DNA of 64,000 bases, from sequence record OR525698.1. The stretch is one strand, 5' to 3'. The notes under the pieces were generated by a model. The model searched no databases, was not told the DNA's origin, and saw nothing but the letters and a program-made list of their open reading frames with translations. The DNA comes from Escherichia phage vB-Eco-KMB43. Both the position numbers and the translations under genes were made by a program. Below, piece by piece: positions 1 through 61,837 of this stretch. Numbering within the stretch: the stretch's first letter is position 1; each line of letters begins with the position of its first letter.

Positions 1-589
1 ATTGCTTTAAAAGTGCTTCCAGAAACTGCTGACGGGCTTTAGGCGTTACATAGTGTAAGTTAAGACCCAGCATTACAGTATTACCCGCCTTTGTCTTAGA
101 ATCACCCAGACAAATGATCAGCGGGAAAACATCCCAATATGGCAAAGTGTCTTTATACTTCGCATCATACATAAAGGTATAGATTCGCCCTACTTGCGGT
201 TTTACAATCTGGTGTCCCTTTATTCCCGCTTTTATTGTTTTAGTAAACCACTCCTGTGATTTTTCTTTAGGACGACTCTTTGATACAGCACGCATAGACG
301 CACGAAAATCATTAATCATCATCATTGCGCGTTGCTGCTTATTGAGACCCTTTGCGCCTTTCCCTTTTAGTTTTTCAACTTCTATTGCTGTTTTAATTTC
401 GCTTGCATAACGAGACATACTTTTAGTGAAAGTCGCATAGGCTATTCCCTTAGAATCTGCAAATGCTTTAGCTGTCATGCCTTTGGCTTTTGCTTTCGCA
501 AATTCTACACCCAATTCGACCCACTGTTTAGACTTTCTTTTTTGGGGAGACGGCTTTTCGTCTTCTGTGATTATTTCAAATACGCTCAT
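1..589 (-). CDS. gp2: DNA end-protector gp2-like protein, N-terminal ~196 codons; gene runs off the window start
   Basis: ATG at 589 (minus) with open frame to position 1 (translation MSVFEIITEDEKPSPQKRKSKQW...); located next to gene 4 and upstream of gene 53 as in T4. Confidence 0.45.
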   Translation of the reverse strand, partial: MSVFEIITEDEKPSPQKRKSKQWVELGVEFAKAKAKGMTAKAFADSKGIAYATFTKSMSRYASEIKTAIEVEKLKGKGAKGLNKQQRAMMMINDFRASMRAVSKSRPKEKSQEWFTKTIKAGIKGHQIVKPQVGRIYTFMYDAKYKDTLPYWDVFPLIICLGDSKTKAGNTVMLGLNLHYVTPKARQQFLEALLKQ

Positions 590-600
590 AATATTATCCT

Positions 601-1077
601 CTATTTGTTAAGCCCTTTAAAGCCAAACACTTTCTTTAATGCATGTTCGGTGATGATCTTAAACTCCATGTTATGCTTTTGGCACAAATCAACCGCAGCT
701 TTCCACTTTTCCGTGTTTACAGTATATGTGTAACACTCTTGCATGTATCTTTGCTTAGTCTTAGTGGTTATTCTTTTTGGCCTTTCCGGTGGCCGTGTCT
801 CTTTTGCCGGTTTAACTTCCCATAAGAACTCTTTACCATCTACAAATTTCACCCAAAAATCCATATGATACTTTCTGGATCGTTTATCTGCGCTAGACCA
901 GTAAGGTATAATCACACACTCAGAGTTCCATTTAGACACGCTAGGACTACGGTCCAAAAATTTCATTATGTGCAATTCCCAGCTTGATCTATAAGTGATT
1001 TTATGCAAGTTGTTTCCTTTGTACTTCTCAGGATTTTCTGGCTTGAACTTGCCCTTATAAGTGTTAGATCCTCCCAT
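601..1077 (-). CDS. gp4: head completion protein gp4-like
   Basis: 158-aa ORF; synteny between gene 2 and gene 53 as in T4 (gp4 is 150 aa); no motif-level confirmation. Confidence 0.45.
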   Translation of the reverse strand: MGGSNTYKGKFKPENPEKYKGNNLHKITYRSSWELHIMKFLDRSPSVSKWNSECVIIPYWSSADKRSRKYHMDFWVKFVDGKEFLWEVKPAKETRPPERPKRITTKTKQRYMQECYTYTVNTEKWKAAVDLCQKHNMEFKIITEHALKKVFGFKGLNK

Positions 1078-1092
1078 TTTAGCACCCTTTAT

Positions 1093-1100
1093 TATAAATA
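1093..1100 (+). promoter_or_regulatory. T4-type late promoter TATAAATA upstream of gene 53
   Basis: exact TATAAATA about 33 nt upstream of ATG 1133. Confidence 0.5.
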
Positions 1101-1132
1101 CATAATACTATTTATCAATTGAGGGTGCTAAA

Positions 1133-1687
1133 ATGCTCTTTTCTTTCTTCCCTGCCATTGAATACAACGGCAAGATGATTACTGACATTGTGCGCAATTA
1201 CCGCGCCTATTTCAACGCAATAATTTCTGATTATAACATACAAACATATTACATTCAAGGTAGTCCACGACCGGAACAAGTTGCATATGAAGTATACGGA
1301 AACCAACAACTTTATTGGATCTTGCTGATGCTTAATGACGTATACGATCCGTTCCATGACTGGATCACCGATCAAGAGACAGCATATGAATCAGCCGAAC
1401 AGCGATATGCAAATGTAGGAGGAAATCAAGTATTATACCACGTTGATATTGACGGAAACAAGTATTGGAATCTTACCGAATATCCGAAAGGATCAAGCAA
1501 TTGGTATGATAAAGGGGATATTCATCATCGTCATTTGCAGTTTCAAGGTGCACTATCGGCAGTAGACACACTGGAAGATGCGATCCTCCGTAATGAGGAA
1601 CGACGCAAGATCAAGATCATAGATCCTACACAAATTAAACAATTTATTAACGCATTCATTCGAGAAATGGAAAAGGCTGATGTGTAA
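1133..1687 (+). CDS. gp53: baseplate wedge protein gp53
   Basis: 184-aa ORF directly upstream of gp5; T4 gene order 53-5. Confidence 0.6.
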   Translation: MLFSFFPAIEYNGKMITDIVRNYRAYFNAIISDYNIQTYYIQGSPRPEQVAYEVYGNQQLYWILLMLNDVYDPFHDWITDQETAYESAEQRYANVGGNQVLYHVDIDGNKYWNLTEYPKGSSNWYDKGDIHHRHLQFQGALSAVDTLEDAILRNEERRKIKIIDPTQIKQFINAFIREMEKADV

Positions 1688-1698
1688 GGTGATTAATT

Positions 1699-3498
1699 AT
1701 GCTAATGTTTAATAACTCCGTTAAATGGTTTACCGGAATTGTAGAAAACAGGGAAGACCCATTAATGCTGGGGCGTGTTCAGGTTAGGATTCATGGTATA
1801 CATCCCTCGCTATCCGCACACGGTGACATTCAAGGTCTCCCAACCGAAGATCTATTATGGATTACGCCAGTACAAGATATTACAAGCGCGGCGATCTCCG
1901 GTATAGGTCAAAGCCCTACTGGTATTGTTGAAGGTTCAATGGTATTTGGTTTGGCTTTAGATGAACGTTATTTAAACTGCGTTATTCTGGGTACTATTGC
2001 CGGACAATATACAGAGAAACCACTCACTACAGAAGGTTTTTGCGACCCTTCTGGTGCATATCCTCGTTATATTGGTAATGATGTTAATATTCTTGCTCGT
2101 GGCGGTATTAACCCAGAAACCGGACAAACAACAAAACCTGATAGTGTCTATATTCGAGATGAAAACACTGGAGTTGCAGTAAATCCAGACGACGAGCCAT
2201 TAGACCAAATTCCGGTTGATGATAATCCTGATTTTACAATAGAAAAAATGCTGCGGGGCGATGAGGGATATCGCGAGAAATGGTATCTTGATTCAGAAGG
2301 ATATCCGACAATAGGCATCGGGCATTTGATCATTTATAAGAAAACCAGTGATCTGGGTATTATCAATAATGAACTTTCTAAGCTGGTAGGGCGTGAAGTT
2401 ACAAACGGAAGACTTACCGCCGAAGAAGTTAGTAAAGTATTTGCCGACGATATAGAAAAGACTCGTCGTGATATGCGCAAACATCCACGAATTGCACCTG
2501 TCTATAATAAATGTAATGCTTCTCGTCGTATGGCATTAGAAAATATGGCGTTTCAAATGGGTGTTGGTGGATTGGGTAAATTTAAGAATAGTCTTGCTGC
2601 GATGTTAGCGGAAGAATGGAAACAAGCCTATGATGGATTACGTCAATCTGTATGGGCTAACCAAACTCCAGGACGATCCAGCCGTGTTTCTAAAATTATT
2701 TTAACTGGTAACTTAGAATCATATGGCGTAATTGCTCCAAAGAAAGATGAATCTGTTTCTGATGATCCGCGAGCACGTTTGAGAAATGCCCGTATTGCTG
2801 CCTATAAGACGCAGAGAGCAGAAGAAGACCCAGAAGCACCGTTTACCCCACAAGACACACGAATCATGTTTAAAGAGCCTAAGAGTTCGTATTCTGCGAG
2901 GTATCCTTATAACCATGTGTACGAGTCAGAGAGCGGTCATATTATCGAGATTGATGATACTCCTTCTCACGAACGTTATCACCGCAAACATCCTTCTGGT
3001 ACATTTGAAGAAACCAGACCGGACGGAACGAGGGTAGAAAAGATTGAGGGTGATGATTATCTGATCGTTAAGCAAGGCCGGAAAGTCAACGTTAAGGGTA
3101 ATTTGCAAGTTGTTGTTGAAGGTGACGCGCAAGTTTATTATATGGGTAATGTAATGCAAACCGTTGATGGTAACGTCACTGAATTTATTCGTGGCAATGT
3201 TAATCAGACCGTTGAAGGTACTGCTAACATGCATGTTGTAGGTGATGTTACCGCTCAGCTTGACGCTAATTTAACGGCTAATGTCAAGGGTAATGCTGAA
3301 TTAATGATCGAGGGTAACACTACCGAAACAATTAAAGGTAACTATGATTTAACCGTTGAGGGTAATTTTAATATGACCGTCAATGGCACTAAATCAGATC
3401 AGGTTAATGGTGACTGGTCCCGTAATTGTGGTGCAAGCGTTAAAGATATTGCATCTGGTACAGTTAAAATTGATGGTAGCCGTATTGATCTTGGGTGA
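1699..3498 (+). CDS. gp5: baseplate hub/cell-puncturing protein gp5 with lysozyme domain
   Basis: 599 aa; internal T4-lysozyme-like segment YLDSEGYPTIGIGHL; C-terminal octapeptide-like beta-helix repeats (VxGNxxxxV pattern, e.g. VKGNLQVVVEGDAQV, VEGTANMHVVGDV). Confidence 0.85.
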   Translation: MLMFNNSVKWFTGIVENREDPLMLGRVQVRIHGIHPSLSAHGDIQGLPTEDLLWITPVQDITSAAISGIGQSPTGIVEGSMVFGLALDERYLNCVILGTIAGQYTEKPLTTEGFCDPSGAYPRYIGNDVNILARGGINPETGQTTKPDSVYIRDENTGVAVNPDDEPLDQIPVDDNPDFTIEKMLRGDEGYREKWYLDSEGYPTIGIGHLIIYKKTSDLGIINNELSKLVGREVTNGRLTAEEVSKVFADDIEKTRRDMRKHPRIAPVYNKCNASRRMALENMAFQMGVGGLGKFKNSLAAMLAEEWKQAYDGLRQSVWANQTPGRSSRVSKIILTGNLESYGVIAPKKDESVSDDPRARLRNARIAAYKTQRAEEDPEAPFTPQDTRIMFKEPKSSYSARYPYNHVYESESGHIIEIDDTPSHERYHRKHPSGTFEETRPDGTRVEKIEGDDYLIVKQGRKVNVKGNLQVVVEGDAQVYYMGNVMQTVDGNVTEFIRGNVNQTVEGTANMHVVGDVTAQLDANLTANVKGNAELMIEGNTTETIKGNYDLTVEGNFNMTVNGTKSDQVNGDWSRNCGASVKDIASGTVKIDGSRIDLG

Positions 3499-32091: not shown

Positions 32092-32130
32092 GTTTATTTT
32101 TGGAATCCTTTGGATTCCTTTTTCTTTTTG

Positions 32131-32138
32131 TATAAATA
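32131..32138 (+). promoter_or_regulatory. late promoter TATAAATA upstream of gene 24
   Basis: exact TATAAATA about 38 nt upstream of ATG 32176. Confidence 0.5.
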
Positions 32139-32175
32139 TGATATATCCATTAAGGCAAATACAGGATTCATAAAC

Positions 32176-33417
32176 ATGACTCATATTTTTACTGAACTGT
32201 TGCGGGAATCTACTTCCTCAGTAGCTAACCAGACAGCGCGACCGCAACTATTATCATTAACTCGCGCGGTAAACAACCTGATTTTCTCTGATCTGGTAGC
32301 AATCCAGCCAACGGATCAACCAGTATCTGCATTGTACGGCCTACGTTATCTTAATCATGATGGTCAGATGACTTTCCGAACTGCTGCAACCTACGGTGGT
32401 GCGGTTGGTGATCGCACAGAGATTGAAGAGTTTTCAAAAGAAAAATCTTATGACGAAGGCGCACTATTCAAATCAGGCGATGTTGTATACGAAGTTGTGA
32501 CCGCTGGTACAGTCGGTGAAGATGCCGAAACTCCAGAAGCTGCGATCTTTAAAGGCGTAATGACAAACAAAATTCGTTTCTATAGCGATTGTGCATCGGT
32601 AGAATACTTTGAAGATAAAAACACCGAAATTGCGTCTACCTCTATGCAGTTTGACAAGTGGCAAGTTAATGTAGGTTCTCGTAAACTGAAAACCTCGTTC
32701 ACCACTGAATTAATGCAGGATCTTGAGGCAAGCCAAATCAACTCTGAAAACTCTGTAATTGATCTTCTGGCTACTGTTGCTTCAGAAGAGATCAACAAAG
32801 ATATTATTCAGAAGTTGATCACTGTATCATCTCGCTATAAAATTAAAGGGATCACCCCTGATGGCGTACTTTCTCTCGTTAGCGTTCAGGATGCACCAAC
32901 ACAAGCGCGTGAACTTTACCGCTATGCTTGCGAGATGAGCAATCAAATGTTGCGGACTTCCTCCTTTGCTGGTACATACGTTTTGGCGTCTTCTCGCGTG
33001 GTTGGCCTCCTGCAATCTTCCGGTTGGATGGAAGAAACCGACAATGCTCTAAGCGAAGGTCGTCTACGTTGCGGTCTGGAAGTGTACGCAGACACGACAA
33101 CACCTTTCGATTATATGCTCGTTGGTTGTAAGCACATGATCGGTGATATGGAGAGTGTCGGTTCTCTGTTCTACTCCCCATATACAGAAGCCGACGGCGC
33201 TGGCGCGTATAAGAGCGTAATTGACCCTAATAGCTTCCAGCATCATGTAGCTATTATGAATCGTTATTCACTCTCTGTCAACCCATATACATCAAAAGTT
33301 GATCAGGAAGAACACCAGGTCATCAAGGGTGACGATTGGGGTAAAATGGCTGGACGTTCAGAAATGTCCTACATTTTAGGAATCGAACTGCCACCGCTTG
33401 AGATTGACAACGCTTAA
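32176..33417 (+). CDS. gp24: head vertex protein gp24
   Basis: in-frame ATG 32176 (MTHIFTELL) downstream of the late promoter; the ORF-track start at 32110 would place the promoter inside the gene; gp23-paralogue position. Confidence 0.8.
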   Translation: MTHIFTELLRESTSSVANQTARPQLLSLTRAVNNLIFSDLVAIQPTDQPVSALYGLRYLNHDGQMTFRTAATYGGAVGDRTEIEEFSKEKSYDEGALFKSGDVVYEVVTAGTVGEDAETPEAAIFKGVMTNKIRFYSDCASVEYFEDKNTEIASTSMQFDKWQVNVGSRKLKTSFTTELMQDLEASQINSENSVIDLLATVASEEINKDIIQKLITVSSRYKIKGITPDGVLSLVSVQDAPTQARELYRYACEMSNQMLRTSSFAGTYVLASSRVVGLLQSSGWMEETDNALSEGRLRCGLEVYADTTTPFDYMLVGCKHMIGDMESVGSLFYSPYTEADGAGAYKSVIDPNSFQHHVAIMNRYSLSVNPYTSKVDQEEHQVIKGDDWGKMAGRSEMSYILGIELPPLEIDNA

Positions 33418-34005
33418 CTAAATATCTAACCAAGACAAGTCAGATCCGCCCAAGATTTTTTCGACGGCGGATCTATTTTCTTGATGATATAAGTTAAAAC
33501 ATGGTATCCCATGTCTACGGGCAACATAAACAGCAATTCTAGTTCCTCCCGAAACGATTCCATTAACTTCTTTCGCCCAAAATATCACACAATCTACCGG
33601 ATCATCAAGTGTCTCACCTAAGACTTGAGCAACATTTCTAGAAAACAGATTTTGCATGTATAACGGTATAGAACGAGGATTATCATAAACATGTTCTAAT
33701 TCATCCATCGCCAGATTTTTTTGTTCTAAGGTTTGCCATGCAATCACATCATGACCGTTATGCTTGTGGTCATAAAACTTCCAATTTGGAATGAAAATTT
33801 TTCTATAATCTGGATCGTAATACTTCATGAAAGCATTGTCCATACCGTAAGCCCCTCCAGAATGCGCTACAACGCGATTTTCTGACAATACCCTCCCAAT
33901 GGTACTAGCCATTATCAAAATGTCGCTAGGCGCTTTTCTAGAGCCGATTAAAGCACATCTACGAAGTGGTTTTACTCCAAATAGATCTTGTAACTGGTCA
34001 AACAT
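33418..34005 (-). CDS. DprA/Smf-like (SLOG-type Rossmann) domain protein
   Basis: 195 aa; motifs LIGSRKAP, HSGGAYGMD, LFSRNVAQVLG, SGGTRIAVYVARRHGIP matching the DprA core pattern GSR / SG.A.G.D / RNR / SGS..TA. Confidence 0.45.
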   Translation of the reverse strand: MFDQLQDLFGVKPLRRCALIGSRKAPSDILIMASTIGRVLSENRVVAHSGGAYGMDNAFMKYYDPDYRKIFIPNWKFYDHKHNGHDVIAWQTLEQKNLAMDELEHVYDNPRSIPLYMQNLFSRNVAQVLGETLDDPVDCVIFWAKEVNGIVSGGTRIAVYVARRHGIPCFNLYHQENRSAVEKILGGSDLSWLDI

Positions 34006-34158
34006 AATATTTCCTCCATAGAAAGCAATATCATACTACAAGTTAATAACAAATACAAGTATCCGCGTAGCGGAAGCGAGCACAGCGAGCATTAAAAACA
34101 CTTCCAGTAATTGATTAATAAATGTTCGAAACAAATTTTTATTATTTTATAAGATAAG

Positions 34159-34329
34159 TCTTCGTTTTGATCATAATTTAAACATACATGTAAAACTACA
34201 CAAAAGGATATCGCTTCGCGAACTCCTACGGAGTATAACATTTGTGTTACAATATGTAGTGATTAATAATTAACCAAAGATACATTTTCTATGTTCTAAA
34301 GATCTTTCTTCGTTTTGATCATAATTTAA
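34159..34329. repeat. pair of direct repeats (23-bp core TCTTCGTTTTGATCATAATTTAA at 34159-34181 and 34307-34329) in AT-rich non-coding region
   Basis: two identical 23-mers plus shared downstream CATGTAAA(A)CT about 148 bp apart. Confidence 0.6.
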
Positions 34330-34385
34330 TCAAACAGTATTAATATTGTGCACATGTAAACTAAAATTATGTTAATAATAGATAC

Positions 34386-34410
34386 AAAAAAGCCGCCCAG
34401 AAGGACGGCT
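34386..34410 (-). terminator. rho-independent terminator (minus strand)
   Basis: AGCCGCCCAGAAGGACGGCT hairpin with T-run on the minus strand, just downstream of the ORF ending at 34419. Confidence 0.6.
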
Positions 34411-34418
34411 AATGTTAA

Positions 34419-34856
34419 TTATTTGTTGATAACGATCTGATTTCGGCGAATGGTAACATTACTCTTAGAGATGATCAGATCATCCGGCACTACGTTAGTT
34501 TTGTATGGTTGGAATCGAACAAGCATCTGATTGCGTTTAGACCCTTCCTTAATCTTGATTTCCATCTGGATATTGTTGCCTACGTGAGCAACCGCAATTT
34601 CACCTTTATTCTCATAGACCCACTTGCTGGTAACGTCTCCAGCAAAAGCCTTAATAACTTGCAATGCTTCGTCGTATGCGGTAGAGCTGTGAACTTTCAG
34701 AAGGCCAGCCGTAGCAAGACGGGAGCAGGTGATCGCCGGAGATTGCCAAACATCAACATTAATTTGCTCAATCATAGTAACACCGCCCTGATCAACTGCT
34801 TTGAATGCTTCGAACATTGCCTTTTTCATTGCTACGTGGTTTTTACGGAATTTCAT
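34419..34856 (-). CDS. hypothetical protein (145 aa)
   Basis: ORF in the 24.x position; no recognised motifs. Confidence 0.4.
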   Translation of the reverse strand: MKFRKNHVAMKKAMFEAFKAVDQGGVTMIEQINVDVWQSPAITCSRLATAGLLKVHSSTAYDEALQVIKAFAGDVTSKWVYENKGEIAVAHVGNNIQMEIKIKEGSKRNQMLVRFQPYKTNVVPDDLIISKSNVTIRRNQIVINK

Positions 34857-35375: not shown

Positions 35376-35569
35376 ACTTCACCTCATACATTCATAAACA
35401 CAACAACGAATAGGACAGTAACAGTTATTAAAGCCATTTTCAACCCCATATTCATAATATTTTCCTCATAGGGTAACGCCCTGTCGATGCGTGCCATTAT
35501 AGGCATCTAAATCGCTCTGTCAAGCACAAAAACAAAAAAGCCACCCCGAAGGATGGCTGATAGATTTCA

Positions 35570-39944: not shown

Positions 39945-40352
39945 TTAGCGACCAGATTCCAGCATACGCAATTCTATAGCATTCTTGATCGCAAAGCCAC
40001 GAGATTTAACGATATCAAGTGCGCGACCAGCAAAATCCATTACCATCTGGTAATATGCAATTTTCGTATCAAGTGGTAAGATCTCGTCGTCTGCTGCCAT
40101 GACAACTTTCAATTCTGATTTCTCATATTCAGCACGACACCAGTCATCACTACGGTTAGTGTAAAAATCAAGACGATTTTTCATAGCCTTTTTCTTTTTA
40201 GCCTCAAGAGCAATCGTCTCTCTTTTCGCCTCGCTGTAAATCCTTAACCACTTTGAGTATACTACCGGATTATTCAGCGCCTCCCATTGCAACTTAGTCG
40301 CATCGATCTTCATGTCAGCTTCTAATTGTTCTTTCAAATCGTTTAGGTCCAT
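39945..40352 (-). CDS. uvsY: UvsY recombination mediator
   Basis: 135 aa; strong resemblance to T4 UvsY as recalled (DLKEQLEADMKIDATKLQWEALNN..., C-terminal VKSRGFAIKNAIELRMLESG). Confidence 0.8.
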   Translation of the reverse strand: MDLNDLKEQLEADMKIDATKLQWEALNNPVVYSKWLRIYSEAKRETIALEAKKKKAMKNRLDFYTNRSDDWCRAEYEKSELKVVMAADDEILPLDTKIAYYQMVMDFAGRALDIVKSRGFAIKNAIELRMLESGR

Positions 40353-59408: not shown

Positions 59409-59882
59409 TTACTCCTTATTTTCGCGCTCGTACTTTTCGAAATAAAATTCTACTGGCTGGTCGTGGATTGACAGCAAGCCAAAGCGTTTAGCCGCTCGCA
59501 ATCCCATATTGCGCTGAATGTACTTCTGGAAGTTCTCGCGTATACACTTACGCCAGGATTCTAAGCCCATGCAGCTTTTATAAAGATTGCATTGCACACA
59601 TGCCGGATTCATGTTATCAAGTATATCATGCTCCGGTTTATGCATTCCTACAACCTTATACTTCCACGATCCATCATCATTACGGACAATTCGTCCATTT
59701 TCATCATAGACTACCTTTGAGCGTCGCAATACTGGTTTGATGTGGTCTGCGTGCCAGCGATCCCCTAGTTCCTCGCCACAATAGGCACAACGTCCACCAT
59801 ATTTCATTTTCAGGATCTGGCGTTGCTCTTTCTTTGACAATTTTTTAGGTTTAGGGGCTTTCGCCCCTTCATTATCACACAT
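59409..59882 (-). CDS. HNH endonuclease (candidate homing endonuclease)
   Basis: 157 aa; CAYCGEEL...HADHIKPV...NMNPACVQCN (CxxC-H-N-H-CxxC arrangement); start overlaps ligase stop region. Confidence 0.6.
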   Translation of the reverse strand: MCDNEGAKAPKPKKLSKKEQRQILKMKYGGRCAYCGEELGDRWHADHIKPVLRRSKVVYDENGRIVRNDDGSWKYKVVGMHKPEHDILDNMNPACVQCNLYKSCMGLESWRKCIRENFQKYIQRNMGLRAAKRFGLLSIHDQPVEFYFEKYERENKE

Positions 59883-61377
59883 CGAATACCTCTTTTACTG
59901 TATTTGCAGTGGTCTTGTCGTAGCGAATACGTTTGATGATTGGGAGAAATAAAGAGAACTCCGGTTCATCTTCTTTACGTGATTTGCTGCGAATGTACCC
60001 GTTGCATGTCATCTCAATGACTTTTCCAATCAGGTTATGACGGTCAGCCCATAACATTTCTCGGTCGAGTTCATTTCGACGATCGAACGGAATTACACGT
60101 TCAGTACCATCATCACCTTTTTCGGTTGTAGTGTCGGTTAATCCCGATCCGGTGTTAGTCATCATTCGTCCGCACGCACTACGGACAGTAAAACCGCCTA
60201 CCTTATTGGGGTCTTTACTATGCGGATATACATCAACAATTTCCGCGTCGAAGTCAATCACTTCTTTAAATTTAACCTGATCTTTACTACGGCGATCTTC
60301 AAATACACCATGTAAATTTTTAAGGATAATACCTTCTAAGCCCATGTTGACATAACGATGATATACTTCGCGAGCTTCATCGATATTGTTAACTACAGTG
60401 TTTTCTATGATCTGAACACGAGGATCGTTAAGTTCTTCAACAATCTGTTTTAGTTCTTCGAATCGATCTTTATATTGCTTCGTTGCTTTCTCGTTTCCGT
60501 AATACACATCACGGTCGATAACATCCCAGACAGTGTAAACAATACATTGGGCTTCTTCTTTTGGAATAGTTCCTTTAAGTGATTTGTTGAGGATACCATT
60601 TCCGGTCTGACGATCTGCAACAACGGATTCTTTCACTGCTTCCGCTACTGGCGTTAATGGCATTTCCTCTTCTTCAAATATCCATGACAGAGTACCATCA
60701 TAAACGCTTTCAACGAAGTTCTGCGCTGGTGTTTGCGAAAGGGTAGGCATATATACCAATTCGCCATCTAGAACAATTCCACGGCCTCGTAGACGCTCTA
60801 AAACCGCAAACAAATCATCAAGCCCTTGATAGGTATTACCTGAGCGGGTATAGATTGCTAATGTTTCCCCGTCAATATCAGCCATACCACGAGCGCCATC
60901 GCTTTTAAGTTGTGCATACGCCGGATACTTGATATTAGCAATAGTCTTATCAGAACATGACGATGCAAGGTGGCACGGTTGCTGGGGGATCAGTTTCTTC
61001 CATACCTTGTTTGCAGTGGTAGCGGAACAGCCGCATTCCAGATCACGATTCAGGACCATCATTGCAACTTTAGCATCATCCTCTGACAAGCAAGTCAGAG
61101 TATCGGTAACTAGCTGTAATGCTGCATTACCAGTTACTTGACGCGTGGCAAGTTTATTTTTAAAGACCTGTAATGCACCGGATAAAGACAATACAGACGA
61201 ATAGCGAGACGGTTTATCGTATTTCTTTACGCCAAACGTAACCTGTTTGCAATATGCCAGATAAAAGCATTCTTTCAGCGTTTCATTGCTCGCGGATTCT
61301 TTCAGAATCTTTTCTTTCAGCGATGTTTTGTCTGTTGCTGCAAGCTGATTAATGATATTAAGAATTGACATTTTCAC
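59875..61377 (-). CDS. gp30: ATP-dependent DNA ligase (gene 30)
   Basis: 500 aa; adenylation motif AQLKSDGARG (KxDGxR); size matches T4 ligase (487 aa). Confidence 0.85.
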   Translation of the reverse strand: MKMSILNIINQLAATDKTSLKEKILKESASNETLKECFYLAYCKQVTFGVKKYDKPSRYSSVLSLSGALQVFKNKLATRQVTGNAALQLVTDTLTCLSEDDAKVAMMVLNRDLECGCSATTANKVWKKLIPQQPCHLASSCSDKTIANIKYPAYAQLKSDGARGMADIDGETLAIYTRSGNTYQGLDDLFAVLERLRGRGIVLDGELVYMPTLSQTPAQNFVESVYDGTLSWIFEEEEMPLTPVAEAVKESVVADRQTGNGILNKSLKGTIPKEEAQCIVYTVWDVIDRDVYYGNEKATKQYKDRFEELKQIVEELNDPRVQIIENTVVNNIDEAREVYHRYVNMGLEGIILKNLHGVFEDRRSKDQVKFKEVIDFDAEIVDVYPHSKDPNKVGGFTVRSACGRMMTNTGSGLTDTTTEKGDDGTERVIPFDRRNELDREMLWADRHNLIGKVIEMTCNGYIRSKSRKEDEPEFSLFLPIIKRIRYDKTTANTVKEVFDV

Positions 61378-61837
61378 CTCGTTTTGTTAAACGTTCACGA
61401 ATATCATTGAGGATACTACAAAATTCCGATTCAGTCAATATAGTCTTTAACGGATCAGTTCCACCTATGCTATGACGTAATTTCTTATTTCCGGTAGCAA
61501 GTAATGCTTTACAAAATTCTGGGTTATTCCGTGCCATCGTAACAAATGCCAGATGTACCAGTCTGTAATAATGCTCACTCATTCGATGAATCGGGCGACC
61601 CTGAAAATATAACATGTGATTCTCAATCTTTTCAGTTCTTCCGGTTCTTTTTGCTTTGCCACCGTGCATCAAAAAGATTTCTCTTTGTCTCTGAGGGTTC
61701 TTAAATCTTAGCCCCTGTAAAAATCCTTCTGTGCTGTTAATATCGCAGCCAAATAAACGGAATGGTCTTTTATTGAAATTACTCAATTCACCCGATGGAT
61801 AAGGTCCACCCGCATAGATATCAATTTCAGAAGTCAT
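61358..61837 (-). CDS. NADAR / YbiA-like domain protein
   Basis: 159 aa; GELSNF...STEGFLQGLRF and ALLATGNKKL paralleling E. coli YbiA as recalled (GDFSNF...TSEHYFQAQKF, ALLATAPAKL). Confidence 0.6.
   Translation of the reverse strand: MTSEIDIYAGGPYPSGELSNFNKRPFRLFGCDINSTEGFLQGLRFKNPQRQREIFLMHGGKAKRTGRTEKIENHMLYFQGRPIHRMSEHYYRLVHLAFVTMARNNPEFCKALLATGNKKLRHSIGGTDPLKTILTESEFCSILNDIRERLTKRGENVNS

What the first reader, a model, noticed from the sequence alone, without database searches (positions are those of the whole stretch)
33418..34005. DprA/Smf-like domain protein in the position where T4 carries rnlB
The 195-aa minus-strand ORF directly after gene 24 has the DprA Rossmann-core signature (LIGSRKAP; HSGGAYGMD; LFSRNVAQVLG; SGGTRIAVYVARRHGIP) but lacks the flanking SAM and winged-helix domains. 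DprA loads RecA onto single-stranded DNA. A stand-alone DprA-like (SLOG-type) domain next to the uvsW/uvsY recombination genes is not part of the canonical T4 gene set as I recall it. It could act in recombination or in nucleotide-derived signalling or conflict.
Basis: partly seen in the sequence, partly recalled or inferred. Interest (0 to 1): 0.6.

Follow-up and report, generated by a model that had tools for sequence, protein, structure and literature searches.

The report
Stand-alone DprA-like SLOG protein in phage
The ORF is a real gene for a small nucleotide-binding protein related to the bacterial DNA-uptake protein DprA; it belongs to a large, already annotated phage family with no tested function, and its gene partners elsewhere suggest it helps phages resist ADP-ribose-based bacterial immunity rather than promote recombination.

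Summary
Window 33418-34005(-) encodes a 195-aa single-domain protein with the quoted motifs, convergent on gene 24, in the slot where T4 has rnlB. The window is a Krischvirus (RB49-type).

It is a full-length member of PHROG 768, "DprA-like DNA recombination-mediator protein". Homologues occur in 1,354 phage records and about 4,300 50%-identity clusters. Viral SLOG domains linked to Macro and NADAR were described computationally in 2022, so this is not new.

Context argues against a RecA/UvsX-loader role:
- Across 102 family subgroups, the recurrent partners are DarG-type macrodomains (15 groups), NADAR (8 groups plus at least 5 fusions), DUF4326, NAMPT and SSB.
- In T4-like phages the gene follows RNA ligase 2, which RB49 has lost.
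- This phage also encodes an AdfN-like NADAR, a DarG-like macrodomain and UvsY.

Most likely role (about 0.5, inferred): it binds or processes a nucleotide or ADP-ribose ligand in counter-defence. Interest is modest.

The parts
33418..34005 (-). CDS of the 195-aa stand-alone SLOG (DprA-like) domain protein, a member of PHROG 768. Conserved pocket motifs: G21-S22-R23, S49-G-G-A-x-G54-x-D56, L120-F-S-R123-N124-x-x-Q127, G153-G154-T155.
34013..34017 (-). Shine-Dalgarno sequence GGAGG, 7 nt upstream of the ATG at 34005-34003.
   Evidence: Read directly from the sequence.
34006..34418 (-). 413-nt spacer upstream of the gene. It holds an intrinsic terminator of the upstream 145-aa ORF (34387-34410) and two copies of a 77-nt direct repeat (34112-34188 and 34260-34336). 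No consensus sigma-70 promoter was found in it. It occupies the place where relatives carry rnlB.
   Evidence: In Jiaodavirus, Moonvirus and Morganella phage, Rnl2 lies directly upstream of the SLOG gene. No Rnl2 remnant was found by tblastn.
61358..61837 (-). gp30.3/AdfN-like NADAR-clan gene beside DNA ligase. It is a candidate functional partner, because the same two domains are fused or adjacent in other phages and bacteria. It is not physically linked to the SLOG gene here.
   Evidence: Pfam PF08010 Phage_30_3 at E 1.2e-38; NADAR fusions and neighbours of the SLOG family; T4 gp30.3 is AdfN, a DNA ADP-ribosylglycohydrolase (PMC11825919).

Best explanation
The gene encodes a stand-alone SLOG-superfamily Rossmannoid domain. 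It belongs to a large, mostly phage- and mobile-element-borne family whose closest characterised relative is the DprA Rossmann domain. The protein keeps a strictly conserved polar pocket (GSR, SGGAxGxD, L/F-x-x-RN-x-x-Q, GGT). This pocket corresponds by motif order and position to the one that holds a flipped-out base in DprA-ssDNA, and to the nucleotide or ADP-ribose site of other SLOG domains.

I infer that it binds, and possibly cleaves, a nucleotide moiety: either an ADP-ribose-derived small molecule or an ADP-ribosylated base on single-stranded DNA or RNA. I infer that it acts in the phage's counter-defence and nucleic-acid repair against NAD+/ADP-ribosylation-based immunity of the DarTG type, alongside the phage's NADAR (AdfN-like gp30.3) and DarG-type macrodomain hydrolases. 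In relatives, RNA ligase 2 would belong to the same set. I do not think it acts as a RecA/UvsX loader.

Shown: the gene, the fold, family membership, motif conservation and the genomic associations.

Inferred: the ligand, any catalysis, and the counter-defence role.
For: Fold and family:
- PHROG 768 matches at E 1e-60. About 4,319 50%-identity clusters match at E<1e-3.
- D56 is invariant across 143 diverse representatives. G21, R23, S49, G50, G54, R123, N124, Q127, G153, G154 and T155 are at least 90% conserved.

Fusions:
- NADAR is fused in 5 of the top 150 representatives. Two of these are about 1,480 aa and also carry YAcAr and LDcluster4 SLOG domains.
- Further NADAR fusions are L151 and L158.
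- DUF4326 is fused in P0160, L081 and L117.

Neighbours across 167 loci, grouped into 102 subgroups at 60% identity:
- A DarG/TARG1-type macrodomain is the top real neighbour. Its profile matches the DarG macro 5m3i at E 1e-36.
- That macrodomain occurs in 15 groups, 14 of 15 on the same strand, 7 within 400 nt. The median distance is 812 nt against 2,596 nt under random placement, P=0.0006.
- NADAR lies within 2.5 kb or is fused in 8 groups.
- NAMPT occurs in 4 loci. SSB occurs in 7 groups.
- Individual contexts include an Acb2/Tad1-type sponge and a Kinase-PolyVal giant protein.

This phage and close relatives:
- The RB49 genome has an AdfN-like NADAR and a DarG-type macrodomain (E 4e-26).
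- In Morganella phage vB_Mm5, an RB49-subfamily SLOG lies 1.9 kb from gp30.3 and DNA ligase.

Literature:
- Viral SLOG domains were predicted to act in NAD+/ADPr pathways through Macro, NADAR and DUF4326 links (PMC9503650).
- Phage NADARs remove ADP-ribose from DNA and defeat DarTG1 (PMC11825919).
Against: - No experiment exists for any member of this family; none was found in eight literature searches.
- The Macro and NADAR links come mainly from the 'GIGSR / H-x-RN' branch, which is about 30% identical to the RB49 protein. In the T4-like branch the conserved neighbour is Rnl2.
- In RB49 itself the gene stands alone, 27 kb from the NADAR gene.
- Most family members are stand-alone, so fusions are a minority.
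- The NADAR distance test alone is weak (P=0.07).
- The nearest relatives by sequence and fold are ssDNA-binding DprA proteins, not enzymes. The LOG catalytic motif PGGxGTxxE is absent.
- SSB, RecJ, SF1 helicase and AlkB-like partners fit a purely nucleic-acid role equally well.
Confidence: 0.5

Rival explanations
1. It is a minimal DprA: an ssDNA-binding recombination mediator or protector. It would bind phage or incoming ssDNA through the Rossmann pocket and load or modulate UvsX or host RecA.
For: - DprA gives the best structural and sequence match.
- 94 of 143 representatives give a weak PF02481 hit and none hits YpsA or YAcAr.
- Both DprA ssDNA-binding motifs, G-S/T/A-R and F/L/Y-x-x-R-N/D, are present and conserved.
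- Family partners include a RecJ fusion, SSB neighbours in 7 groups and SF1/PIF1 helicase neighbours.
- Iyer et al. 2021 suggested such a role for jumbo-phage DprA (PMC7824862).
Against: - It scores below all curated DprA thresholds. It lacks about the first 45 positions of the DprA domain model, as well as the SAM and C-terminal domains.
- The phage has a canonical UvsY mediator.
- Its position near uvsW is ordinary synteny, and the gene sits elsewhere in other phages.
- This reading does not explain the recurrent Macro, NADAR, DUF4326 and NAMPT links or the multi-SLOG-NADAR giant proteins.
- The protein is slightly acidic (pI 6.4, net charge -2), though the family varies.
Confidence: 0.2
2. 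It is an accessory factor of RNA ligase 2 in RNA, or RNA-DNA hybrid, nick repair. It might recognise or clean damaged or modified RNA ends. RB49 would keep it as a leftover after losing rnlB.
For: - Rnl2 (Pfam RNA_ligase + T4_Rnl2_C) lies immediately upstream, often overlapping by 1-14 nt, in Jiaodavirus, Moonvirus, Morganella phage and other T4-like loci. This covers 14 loci and 5-7 subgroups.
- The pair is also kept, split only by an HNH insertion, in a different genome region in Slopekvirus.
Against: - The adjacency is confined to Straboviridae and could be inherited synteny from one event.
- T4 has rnlB without the SLOG gene at this locus.
- RB49 and its relatives P0003 and P0005 have the SLOG gene without any Rnl2 in the locus. 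tblastn finds none anywhere in the RB49 genome. Neither gene therefore needs the other.
- No Rnl2 link is seen outside T4-like phages.
Confidence: 0.1
3. It is an orphan-antitoxin mimic. Like AdfN for DarG1, the phage DprA-like protein would substitute for the DprA-like antitoxins ShosA or PsyrA, and so keep the phosphoribosyltransferase toxins ShosT or PsyrT silent during infection.
For: - PADLOC gives weak hits to PsyrA (E 4e-5) and ShosA (E 3.5e-4).
- ShosA neutralises ShosT without binding it, through ssDNA binding, dimerisation and RecA (PMC12961424), so a trans-acting substitute is conceivable.
- There is precedent for phage orphan antitoxins (PMC11825919).
Against: - The PADLOC hits cover only the 45-residue GSR-SGGA region shared by all DprA-like proteins.
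- ShosA is no closer than DprA, MCP or YpsA in fold.
- No PRTase neighbour came up in the recurrent-neighbour screen.
- The protein lacks ShosA's extra domains (195 vs 308 aa).
Confidence: 0.08

Closest known systems
DprA/Smf Rossmann domain (Pfam PF02481; e.g. H. pylori DprA 4ljk/4ljr, R. palustris 3maj)
   Same: - Same order of pocket motifs: G-S-R after the first strand, SGGAxGxD after the second, L/F-x-x-R-N on the following helix, and a glycine-rich loop later.
   Different: - Scores below the curated thresholds, and only the N-terminal 46 residues align to the Pfam model.
- Lacks the first ~45 positions of the DprA domain model, the SAM domain and the C-terminal winged-helix/DML1 domain.
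- Has a family-specific insert at about aa 74-114.
- Encoded by phages rather than in competence contexts.
- ssDNA binding, dimerisation and RecA binding are untested.
PHROG 768 / 'viral SLOG domains' of Iyer, Burroughs, Anantharaman & Aravind 2022 (PMC9503650)
   Same: - Full-length member (E 1e-60).
- Typically a stand-alone protein of about 180 aa.
- Family-level links to Macro, NADAR and DUF4326, and co-occurrence with NADAR and Macro in the same genome, were reproduced here.
   Different: - The database name, 'recombination mediator', and the published prediction, degradation or sensing of soluble ADPr signals, disagree. Neither has been tested.
- The paper assigns viral SLOGs mainly to the YpsA-like clade. 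Here Pfam profiles and folds put DprA closest and give no YpsA or YAcAr hit.
- The RB49 copy has no Macro or NADAR neighbour.
LOG / 'lysine decarboxylase-like' phosphoribohydrolases (PF03641)
   Different: The catalytic PGGxGTxxE motif is absent. The equivalent loop reads SGGTRIA, with no glutamate.
ShosA and PsyrA, DprA-like antitoxins of PRTase toxin-antitoxin defence systems
   Different: There is no adjacent PRTase toxin, the protein is much shorter, and the similarity is limited to the generic motif region.
ThsA SLOG domain (Thoeris cADPR sensor) and YpsA
   Different: There is no fused effector, and no sequence-profile match to the YpsA or YAcAr models among 143 family representatives.

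Membership tests
DprA/Smf (Pfam PF02481, NCBIfam TIGR00732) | Score at or above the curated family threshold over the ~205-aa DprA domain. | tested here: not met
   PF02481 scores 22.3 bits against a cut-off of 29.6, with only aa 15-60 aligned to model positions 45-90. TIGR00732 scores 14.4 against 191.15. Sequence search of solved structures gives DprA at E 0.7 with the single sequence and E 3e-4 with the family profile.
DprA/Smf | Rossmann-type DprA fold. | tested here: met
   [not shown]
DprA/Smf | Motif 1, G-S/T/A-R, in the loop after the strand (Wang et al. 2014). | tested here: met
   G21-S22-R23 follows strand 16-21. G and R are at least 90% conserved in 143 representatives.
DprA/Smf | Motif 2, F/L/Y-x-x-R-N/D, on the pocket helix. 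| tested here: met
   L120-F-S-R123-N124 lies on predicted helix 115-129, and RN is at least 90% conserved. The equivalence rests on pattern and position, not on a residue-level structural superposition.
DprA/Smf | ssDNA binding, dimerisation and RecA loading. | not testable with these tools
   Needs biochemistry. Net charge was inconclusive: pI 6.4 for this protein, family median 8.5.
DprA/Smf | Usual flanking domains (N-terminal SAM, C-terminal winged helix/DML1). | tested here: not met
   The protein is 195 aa and a single domain. These domains are not universal in DprA, however.
SLOG superfamily | Rossmannoid fold with glycine-rich nucleotide loops. The top structural neighbours are all SLOG members. 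| tested here: met
   [not shown]
LOG phosphoribohydrolases | Catalytic motif PGGxGTxxE. | tested here: not met
   The equivalent loop is S152-G-G-T-R-I-A158 with no Glu. The family consensus is xGGTxxA.
PHROG 768 (phage 'DprA-like' family) | Full-length profile match. | tested here: met
   E 1.2e-60, aa 15-187 aligned to profile positions 4-181 of 191. Identical or near-identical proteins are annotated this way in GenBank, e.g. Shigella phage SFHK24.
Viral SLOG-Macro-NADAR ADPr network (Iyer et al. 2022) | Fusion or conserved neighbourhood with Macro, NADAR or DUF4326. | tested here: inconclusive
   Met at family level. Not met at this locus, where the neighbours are gp24 and an unknown 145-aa ORF. 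The same genome does encode NADAR and a DarG-type macrodomain.
ShosA/PsyrA antitoxins | Adjacent PRTase toxin gene and a specific profile match. | tested here: not met
   Only partial PADLOC hits over aa 15-61. There is no toxin gene beside it.

The most novel reading that the evidence does not exclude
The phage SLOG protein is a DprA-derived reader, or N-glycosidase, of ADP-ribosylated single-stranded nucleic acid. It would work with orphan-antitoxin-type hydrolases, the AdfN NADAR and the DarG-like macrodomain, to undo DarT-type ADP-ribosylation of replicating phage DNA. It could be the phage-specific helper that AdfN appears to need (PMC11825919). That would make the database label 'recombination mediator' wrong for more than 1,300 phage genomes, and it would reconcile the DprA-like pocket with the ADP-ribose-centred gene context.
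Probability: 0.2. Interest if true: 0.65.

Novelty: already known. Interest (0 to 1): 0.3.

Why it matters
If the counter-defence reading is right, a protein annotated as a recombination mediator in over a thousand phage genomes, including many therapeutic Klebsiella, Pseudomonas and Acinetobacter phages, is part of the anti-DarTG / anti-NAD+-immunity toolkit. A small, well-folding protein with four invariant pocket motifs would then give a direct handle on how phages recognise ADP-ribosylated DNA or ADP-ribose signals. As it stands, the finding adds no new kind of element.

Tried and rejected
- **Curated family assignment.** Pfam, NCBIfam and PADLOC give only sub-threshold, N-terminal hits, so there is no curated family beyond PHROG 768.
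- **Conserved downstream partner.** The overlapping downstream ORFs in phAPEC8, Pseudomonas G1, Slopekvirus and EE36phi1 fall in four different PHROGs. Rejected.
- **Recombination-gene linkage.** The neighbours in RB49 are only head genes, DUF2774, hoc and inh. No recombination gene recurred among the neighbours, apart from SSB and an SF1 helicase.
- **rnlB remnant in the 413-nt spacer, or elsewhere in RB49.** tblastn found nothing (best E 0.13).
- **Known RNA in the spacer.** Only chance-level Rfam hits.
- **Charge as a proxy for DNA binding.** Inconclusive.
- **Architecture census with a third database search.** It returned almost only stand-alone proteins and added little.
- **AFDB fold search.** The library was not available.
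- **Burroughs et al. 2015, the SLOG classification paper.** It could not be read, because it is not held. The clade assignment, YpsA-like versus DprA, therefore rests on my own profile and fold results.
- **Supplementary tables of Iyer et al. 2022.** Not held.
- **The 125-aa 'FVFGSN..HGAGAA' neighbour family in N4-like phages.** Only marginal TARG1 similarity (E 0.1), so it is left unassigned.
- **Experimental work on any phage DprA-like or SLOG protein.** Eight literature searches were run and none found any.

Full report
**1. Observation.**

The window is a Krischvirus of the RB49 type. The protein is 100% identical to that of Krischvirus RB49 OZ035808.1 and 99.5% identical to that of Shigella phage SFHK24.

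ORF 33418-34005(-) is 195 aa.

It converges on the gp24-type vertex gene (32110-33417, +), and the two stop codons touch. In T4 the gene in that slot is rnlB, and no SLOG gene lies there.

The gene is certainly real. It matches PHROG 768 at E 1.2e-60 over its full length. tblastn finds homologues in 1,354 of 50,697 phage records. A profile search of 1.84 billion cluster representatives gives 4,319 hits at E<1e-3.

**2. What it is.**

AlphaFold2 with a 32-sequence alignment gives a confident single-domain α/β model (pLDDT 93.9, pTM 0.89).

- Foldseek agrees, with HpDprA at E 2e-5 and TM 0.52.
- The fold is therefore SLOG, and DprA is the nearest solved relative.

By sequence it is not a curated DprA.

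- Pfam PF02481 reaches 22.3 bits against a gathering score of 29.6, and covers only aa 15-60.
- TIGR00732 reaches 14.4 against 191.
- Of 143 diverse family representatives, 94 give such weak DprA hits, 21 hit the SLOG LDcluster4 model, and none hits YpsA or YAcAr.

Four motifs are conserved family-wide: G-[IVL]-GSR-x-x-P, SGGAxGxD, [HFYM]-x-RN-x-x-Q and x-GGT-x-x-A. D56 is invariant. G21, R23, S49, G50, G54, R123, N124, Q127, G153, G154 and T155 are at least 90% conserved.

Wang et al. proposed two motifs as the definition of the DprA ssDNA pocket: G-S/T/A-R and F/L/Y-x-x-R-N/D. In HpDprA these are R52, F140, R143 and N144, which hold a flipped thymine (PMC3950713). Both are present here, as G21-S22-R23 and L120-F-S-R123-N124, and they sit on the matching loop and helix of the model.

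The LOG catalytic motif PGGxGTxxE is absent.

The protein lacks about the first 45 positions of the DprA domain model, and it lacks the SAM and winged-helix domains.

**3. Context in T4-like phages.**

In Jiaodavirus, Moonvirus, Morganella phage vB_Mm5 and other Straboviridae, the gene order is hoc - DUF2774(24.3) - x - Rnl2 - SLOG, convergent with gene 24. Rnl2 and the SLOG gene often overlap by 1-14 nt.

Slopekvirus keeps the Rnl2-(HNH)-SLOG pair in a different genome region, 1.3 kb from NAMPT.

RB49 and its metagenomic relatives P0003 and P0005 have DUF2774 - 145-aa ORF - about 400-nt spacer - SLOG instead. The RB49 genome has no Rnl2 anywhere.

The SLOG gene therefore does not replace rnlB. 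It is rnlB's usual neighbour, kept in a lineage that lost rnlB. T4 shows the opposite arrangement at this locus: rnlB is there and the SLOG gene is not. That weakens any idea of an obligate Rnl2-SLOG partnership.

The uvsW and uvsY genes are simply the next conserved block. UvsY itself is present at 39945-40352 (PDB 4zws, E 2e-38).

**4. Context across the whole family.**

I fetched 80 IMG/VR loci, 80 bacterial or archaeal genome loci and several GenBank phage loci. I grouped them into 102 subgroups at 60% SLOG identity and clustered all six-frame ORFs within 3.5 kb.

*Macrodomain.* After removing alternative-frame artefacts of the SLOG gene itself, the most recurrent neighbour is a ~150-aa family.

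- Its profile matches the DarG macrodomains 5m3i (E 1e-36) and 5m31 (E 2e-32), and TARG1 (E 6e-22).
- It occurs in 15 of 102 groups, on the same strand in 14.
- It lies within 400 nt or is fused in 7.
- The median distance is 812 nt against 2,596 nt for random placement in the same loci (P=0.0006).

*NADAR.*

- It lies within 2.5 kb or is fused in 8 groups.
- It is fused in 5 of the top 150 cluster representatives.
- Two of those, about 1,480 aa long, carry this SLOG domain plus a YAcAr SLOG, an LDcluster4 SLOG and NADAR in one chain.

*Other partners.*

- DUF4326 fusions in P0160, L081 and L117.
- NAMPT in 4 loci.
- SSB in 7 groups.
- An SF1/PIF1 helicase.
- One RecJ fusion.
- One AlkB-like 2OG-oxygenase fusion, below Pfam's cut-off (28.5 vs 31.2 bits).
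- One locus beside an Acb2/Tad1-type sponge, and one between a Kinase-PolyVal giant protein and NADAR.

*This phage.* The RB49 genome also encodes a gp30.3-type NADAR (window 61358-61837, PF08010 E 1e-38) and a DarG-type macrodomain outside the window (E 4e-26). In Morganella phage vB_Mm5, an RB49-subfamily SLOG lies 1.9 kb from gp30.3 and DNA ligase.

**5. What is already known.**

GenBank and pharokka annotate this very protein as 'DprA-like DNA recombination-mediator protein'.

Iyer et al. 2021 suggested jumbo-phage DprA as an extra ssDNA-binding protein (PMC7824862).

Iyer et al. 2022 surveyed viral SLOG domains. They noted fusions and neighbourhoods with Macro, NADAR and DUF4326, and predicted that the domains sense or degrade ADP-ribose-derived immune signals (PMC9503650).

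Since then, several experimental results have appeared:
- T4 gp30.3 was shown to be AdfN, a NADAR that removes ADP-ribose from DNA and defeats DarTG1. There is a hint that it needs another T-even factor (PMC11825919).
- NADARs reverse guanine ADP-ribosylation on DNA and RNA.
- The T4 enzyme is less active than a nucleic-acid-binding bacterial NADAR (PMC11833690).
- ShosA, a DprA-like antitoxin, binds ssDNA and RecA (PMC12961424).

I found no experiment on any member of the phage SLOG family itself.

**6. Most likely mechanism.**

The invariant polar pocket shows that the protein binds a nucleotide-like moiety. This step is well supported.

The partners are dominated by enzymes that remove ADP-ribose from nucleic-acid bases (DarG-type macro, NADAR) or that deal with NAD+/ADPr (DUF4326, NAMPT). 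A second theme is single-strand handling and nucleic-acid sealing (SSB, RecJ, helicase, Rnl2, DNA ligase).

The reading that covers both themes is a DprA-derived module. It would recognise, and perhaps process, ADP-ribose-type ligands or ADP-ribosylated single-stranded nucleic acid, as part of counter-defence and repair. This step is inference, with confidence about 0.5.

The rivals are:
- a pure recombination-mediator role, about 0.2;
- an Rnl2 accessory role, about 0.1;
- a ShosA/PsyrA antitoxin mimic, about 0.08.

Caveats:
- The Macro and NADAR links come mostly from a branch about 30% identical to the RB49 protein.
- Most members are stand-alone.
- In RB49 the gene has no informative neighbour.

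**7. Verdict.**

The element is an ordinary, already annotated member of a known but experimentally untouched phage family. Novelty is 'already known' and interest is modest.

The useful outputs are a testable anti-ADP-ribosylation hypothesis, the Rnl2-SLOG pairing in T4-like phages, and the loss of rnlB in the RB49 lineage.

Noticed in passing
window 34112-34188 and 34260-34336 (within spacer 34006-34418): A 77-nt direct repeat: two copies, 71% identical, 148 nt apart, with an exact 23-nt core TTAAATTATGATCAAAACGAAGA on the minus strand. It occurs only here in the window and in the RB49 genome, and it is conserved in other Krischvirus. Each copy begins a tiny ORF (MIKTK...). It sits where relatives carry rnlB. 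Its function is unknown.
   Followed up: partly
window 34387-34410(-), 35535-35558(-); promoters 35523-35496(-) and 34958-34931(-): Two near-identical GC-rich terminator hairpins (AGCCrTCCTTCkGGGyGGCT + T-run) and two perfect consensus sigma-70 promoters (TTGACA-16-TATAAT). From memory, these resemble the promoter-early/stem-loop cassettes reported for RB49-type phages.
   Followed up: no
window 61358-61837(-), overlapping the start of DNA ligase 59875-61377(-): A gp30.3-family (NADAR-clan, Pfam PF08010, E 1e-38) gene. It is a homologue of T4 AdfN, the anti-DarTG1 DNA ADP-ribosylglycohydrolase.
   Followed up: partly
L091 29046-29510(-) = OZ035808.1 about 127,046-127,510 (outside the window): The RB49 genome encodes a DarG/TARG1-type macrodomain protein (E 4e-26 against the neighbour-family profile). 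The phage therefore carries SLOG, NADAR and Macro genes at three separate loci.
   Followed up: partly
RB49 genome L089-L092: No RNA ligase 2 (rnlB) and no NAMPT homologue were detected by tblastn (best E 0.13 and 1.6). Many other T4-like phages have Rnl2 immediately upstream of the SLOG gene.
   Followed up: yes
window 33415-33420: The stop codons of the convergent gp24 gene (TAA, 33415-33417, +) and the SLOG gene (TAG, 33418-33420, -) are directly adjacent. There is no intergenic spacer or terminator between them.
   Followed up: no
L008 3594-3980, L075 7202-7579, L110 6687-7049 and five other loci (alignment A6): In N4-like phages and related loci, the SLOG gene is accompanied by a conserved ~125-aa protein with the motif FVFGSNxAGxHGAGAA...SYAIPTK. 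It has no Pfam hit and only marginal TARG1 similarity (E 0.1). It may be a divergent macro-like partner.
   Followed up: partly
window 34419-34856(-): A 145-aa ORF upstream of the SLOG gene (PHROG 15652, unknown function, no Pfam hit). ORFs of similar size (142-151 aa) sit at the same position in the RB49-like metagenomic relatives L178 and L179; their homology was not checked.
   Followed up: no
window 1-2000 vs OZ035808.1: The first 2 kb of the window are only 93.7% identical to the RB49 assembly OZ035808.1, and the last 2 kb are 98.4% identical. The window therefore comes from an RB49 relative or a mosaic, not from that exact record.
   Followed up: no
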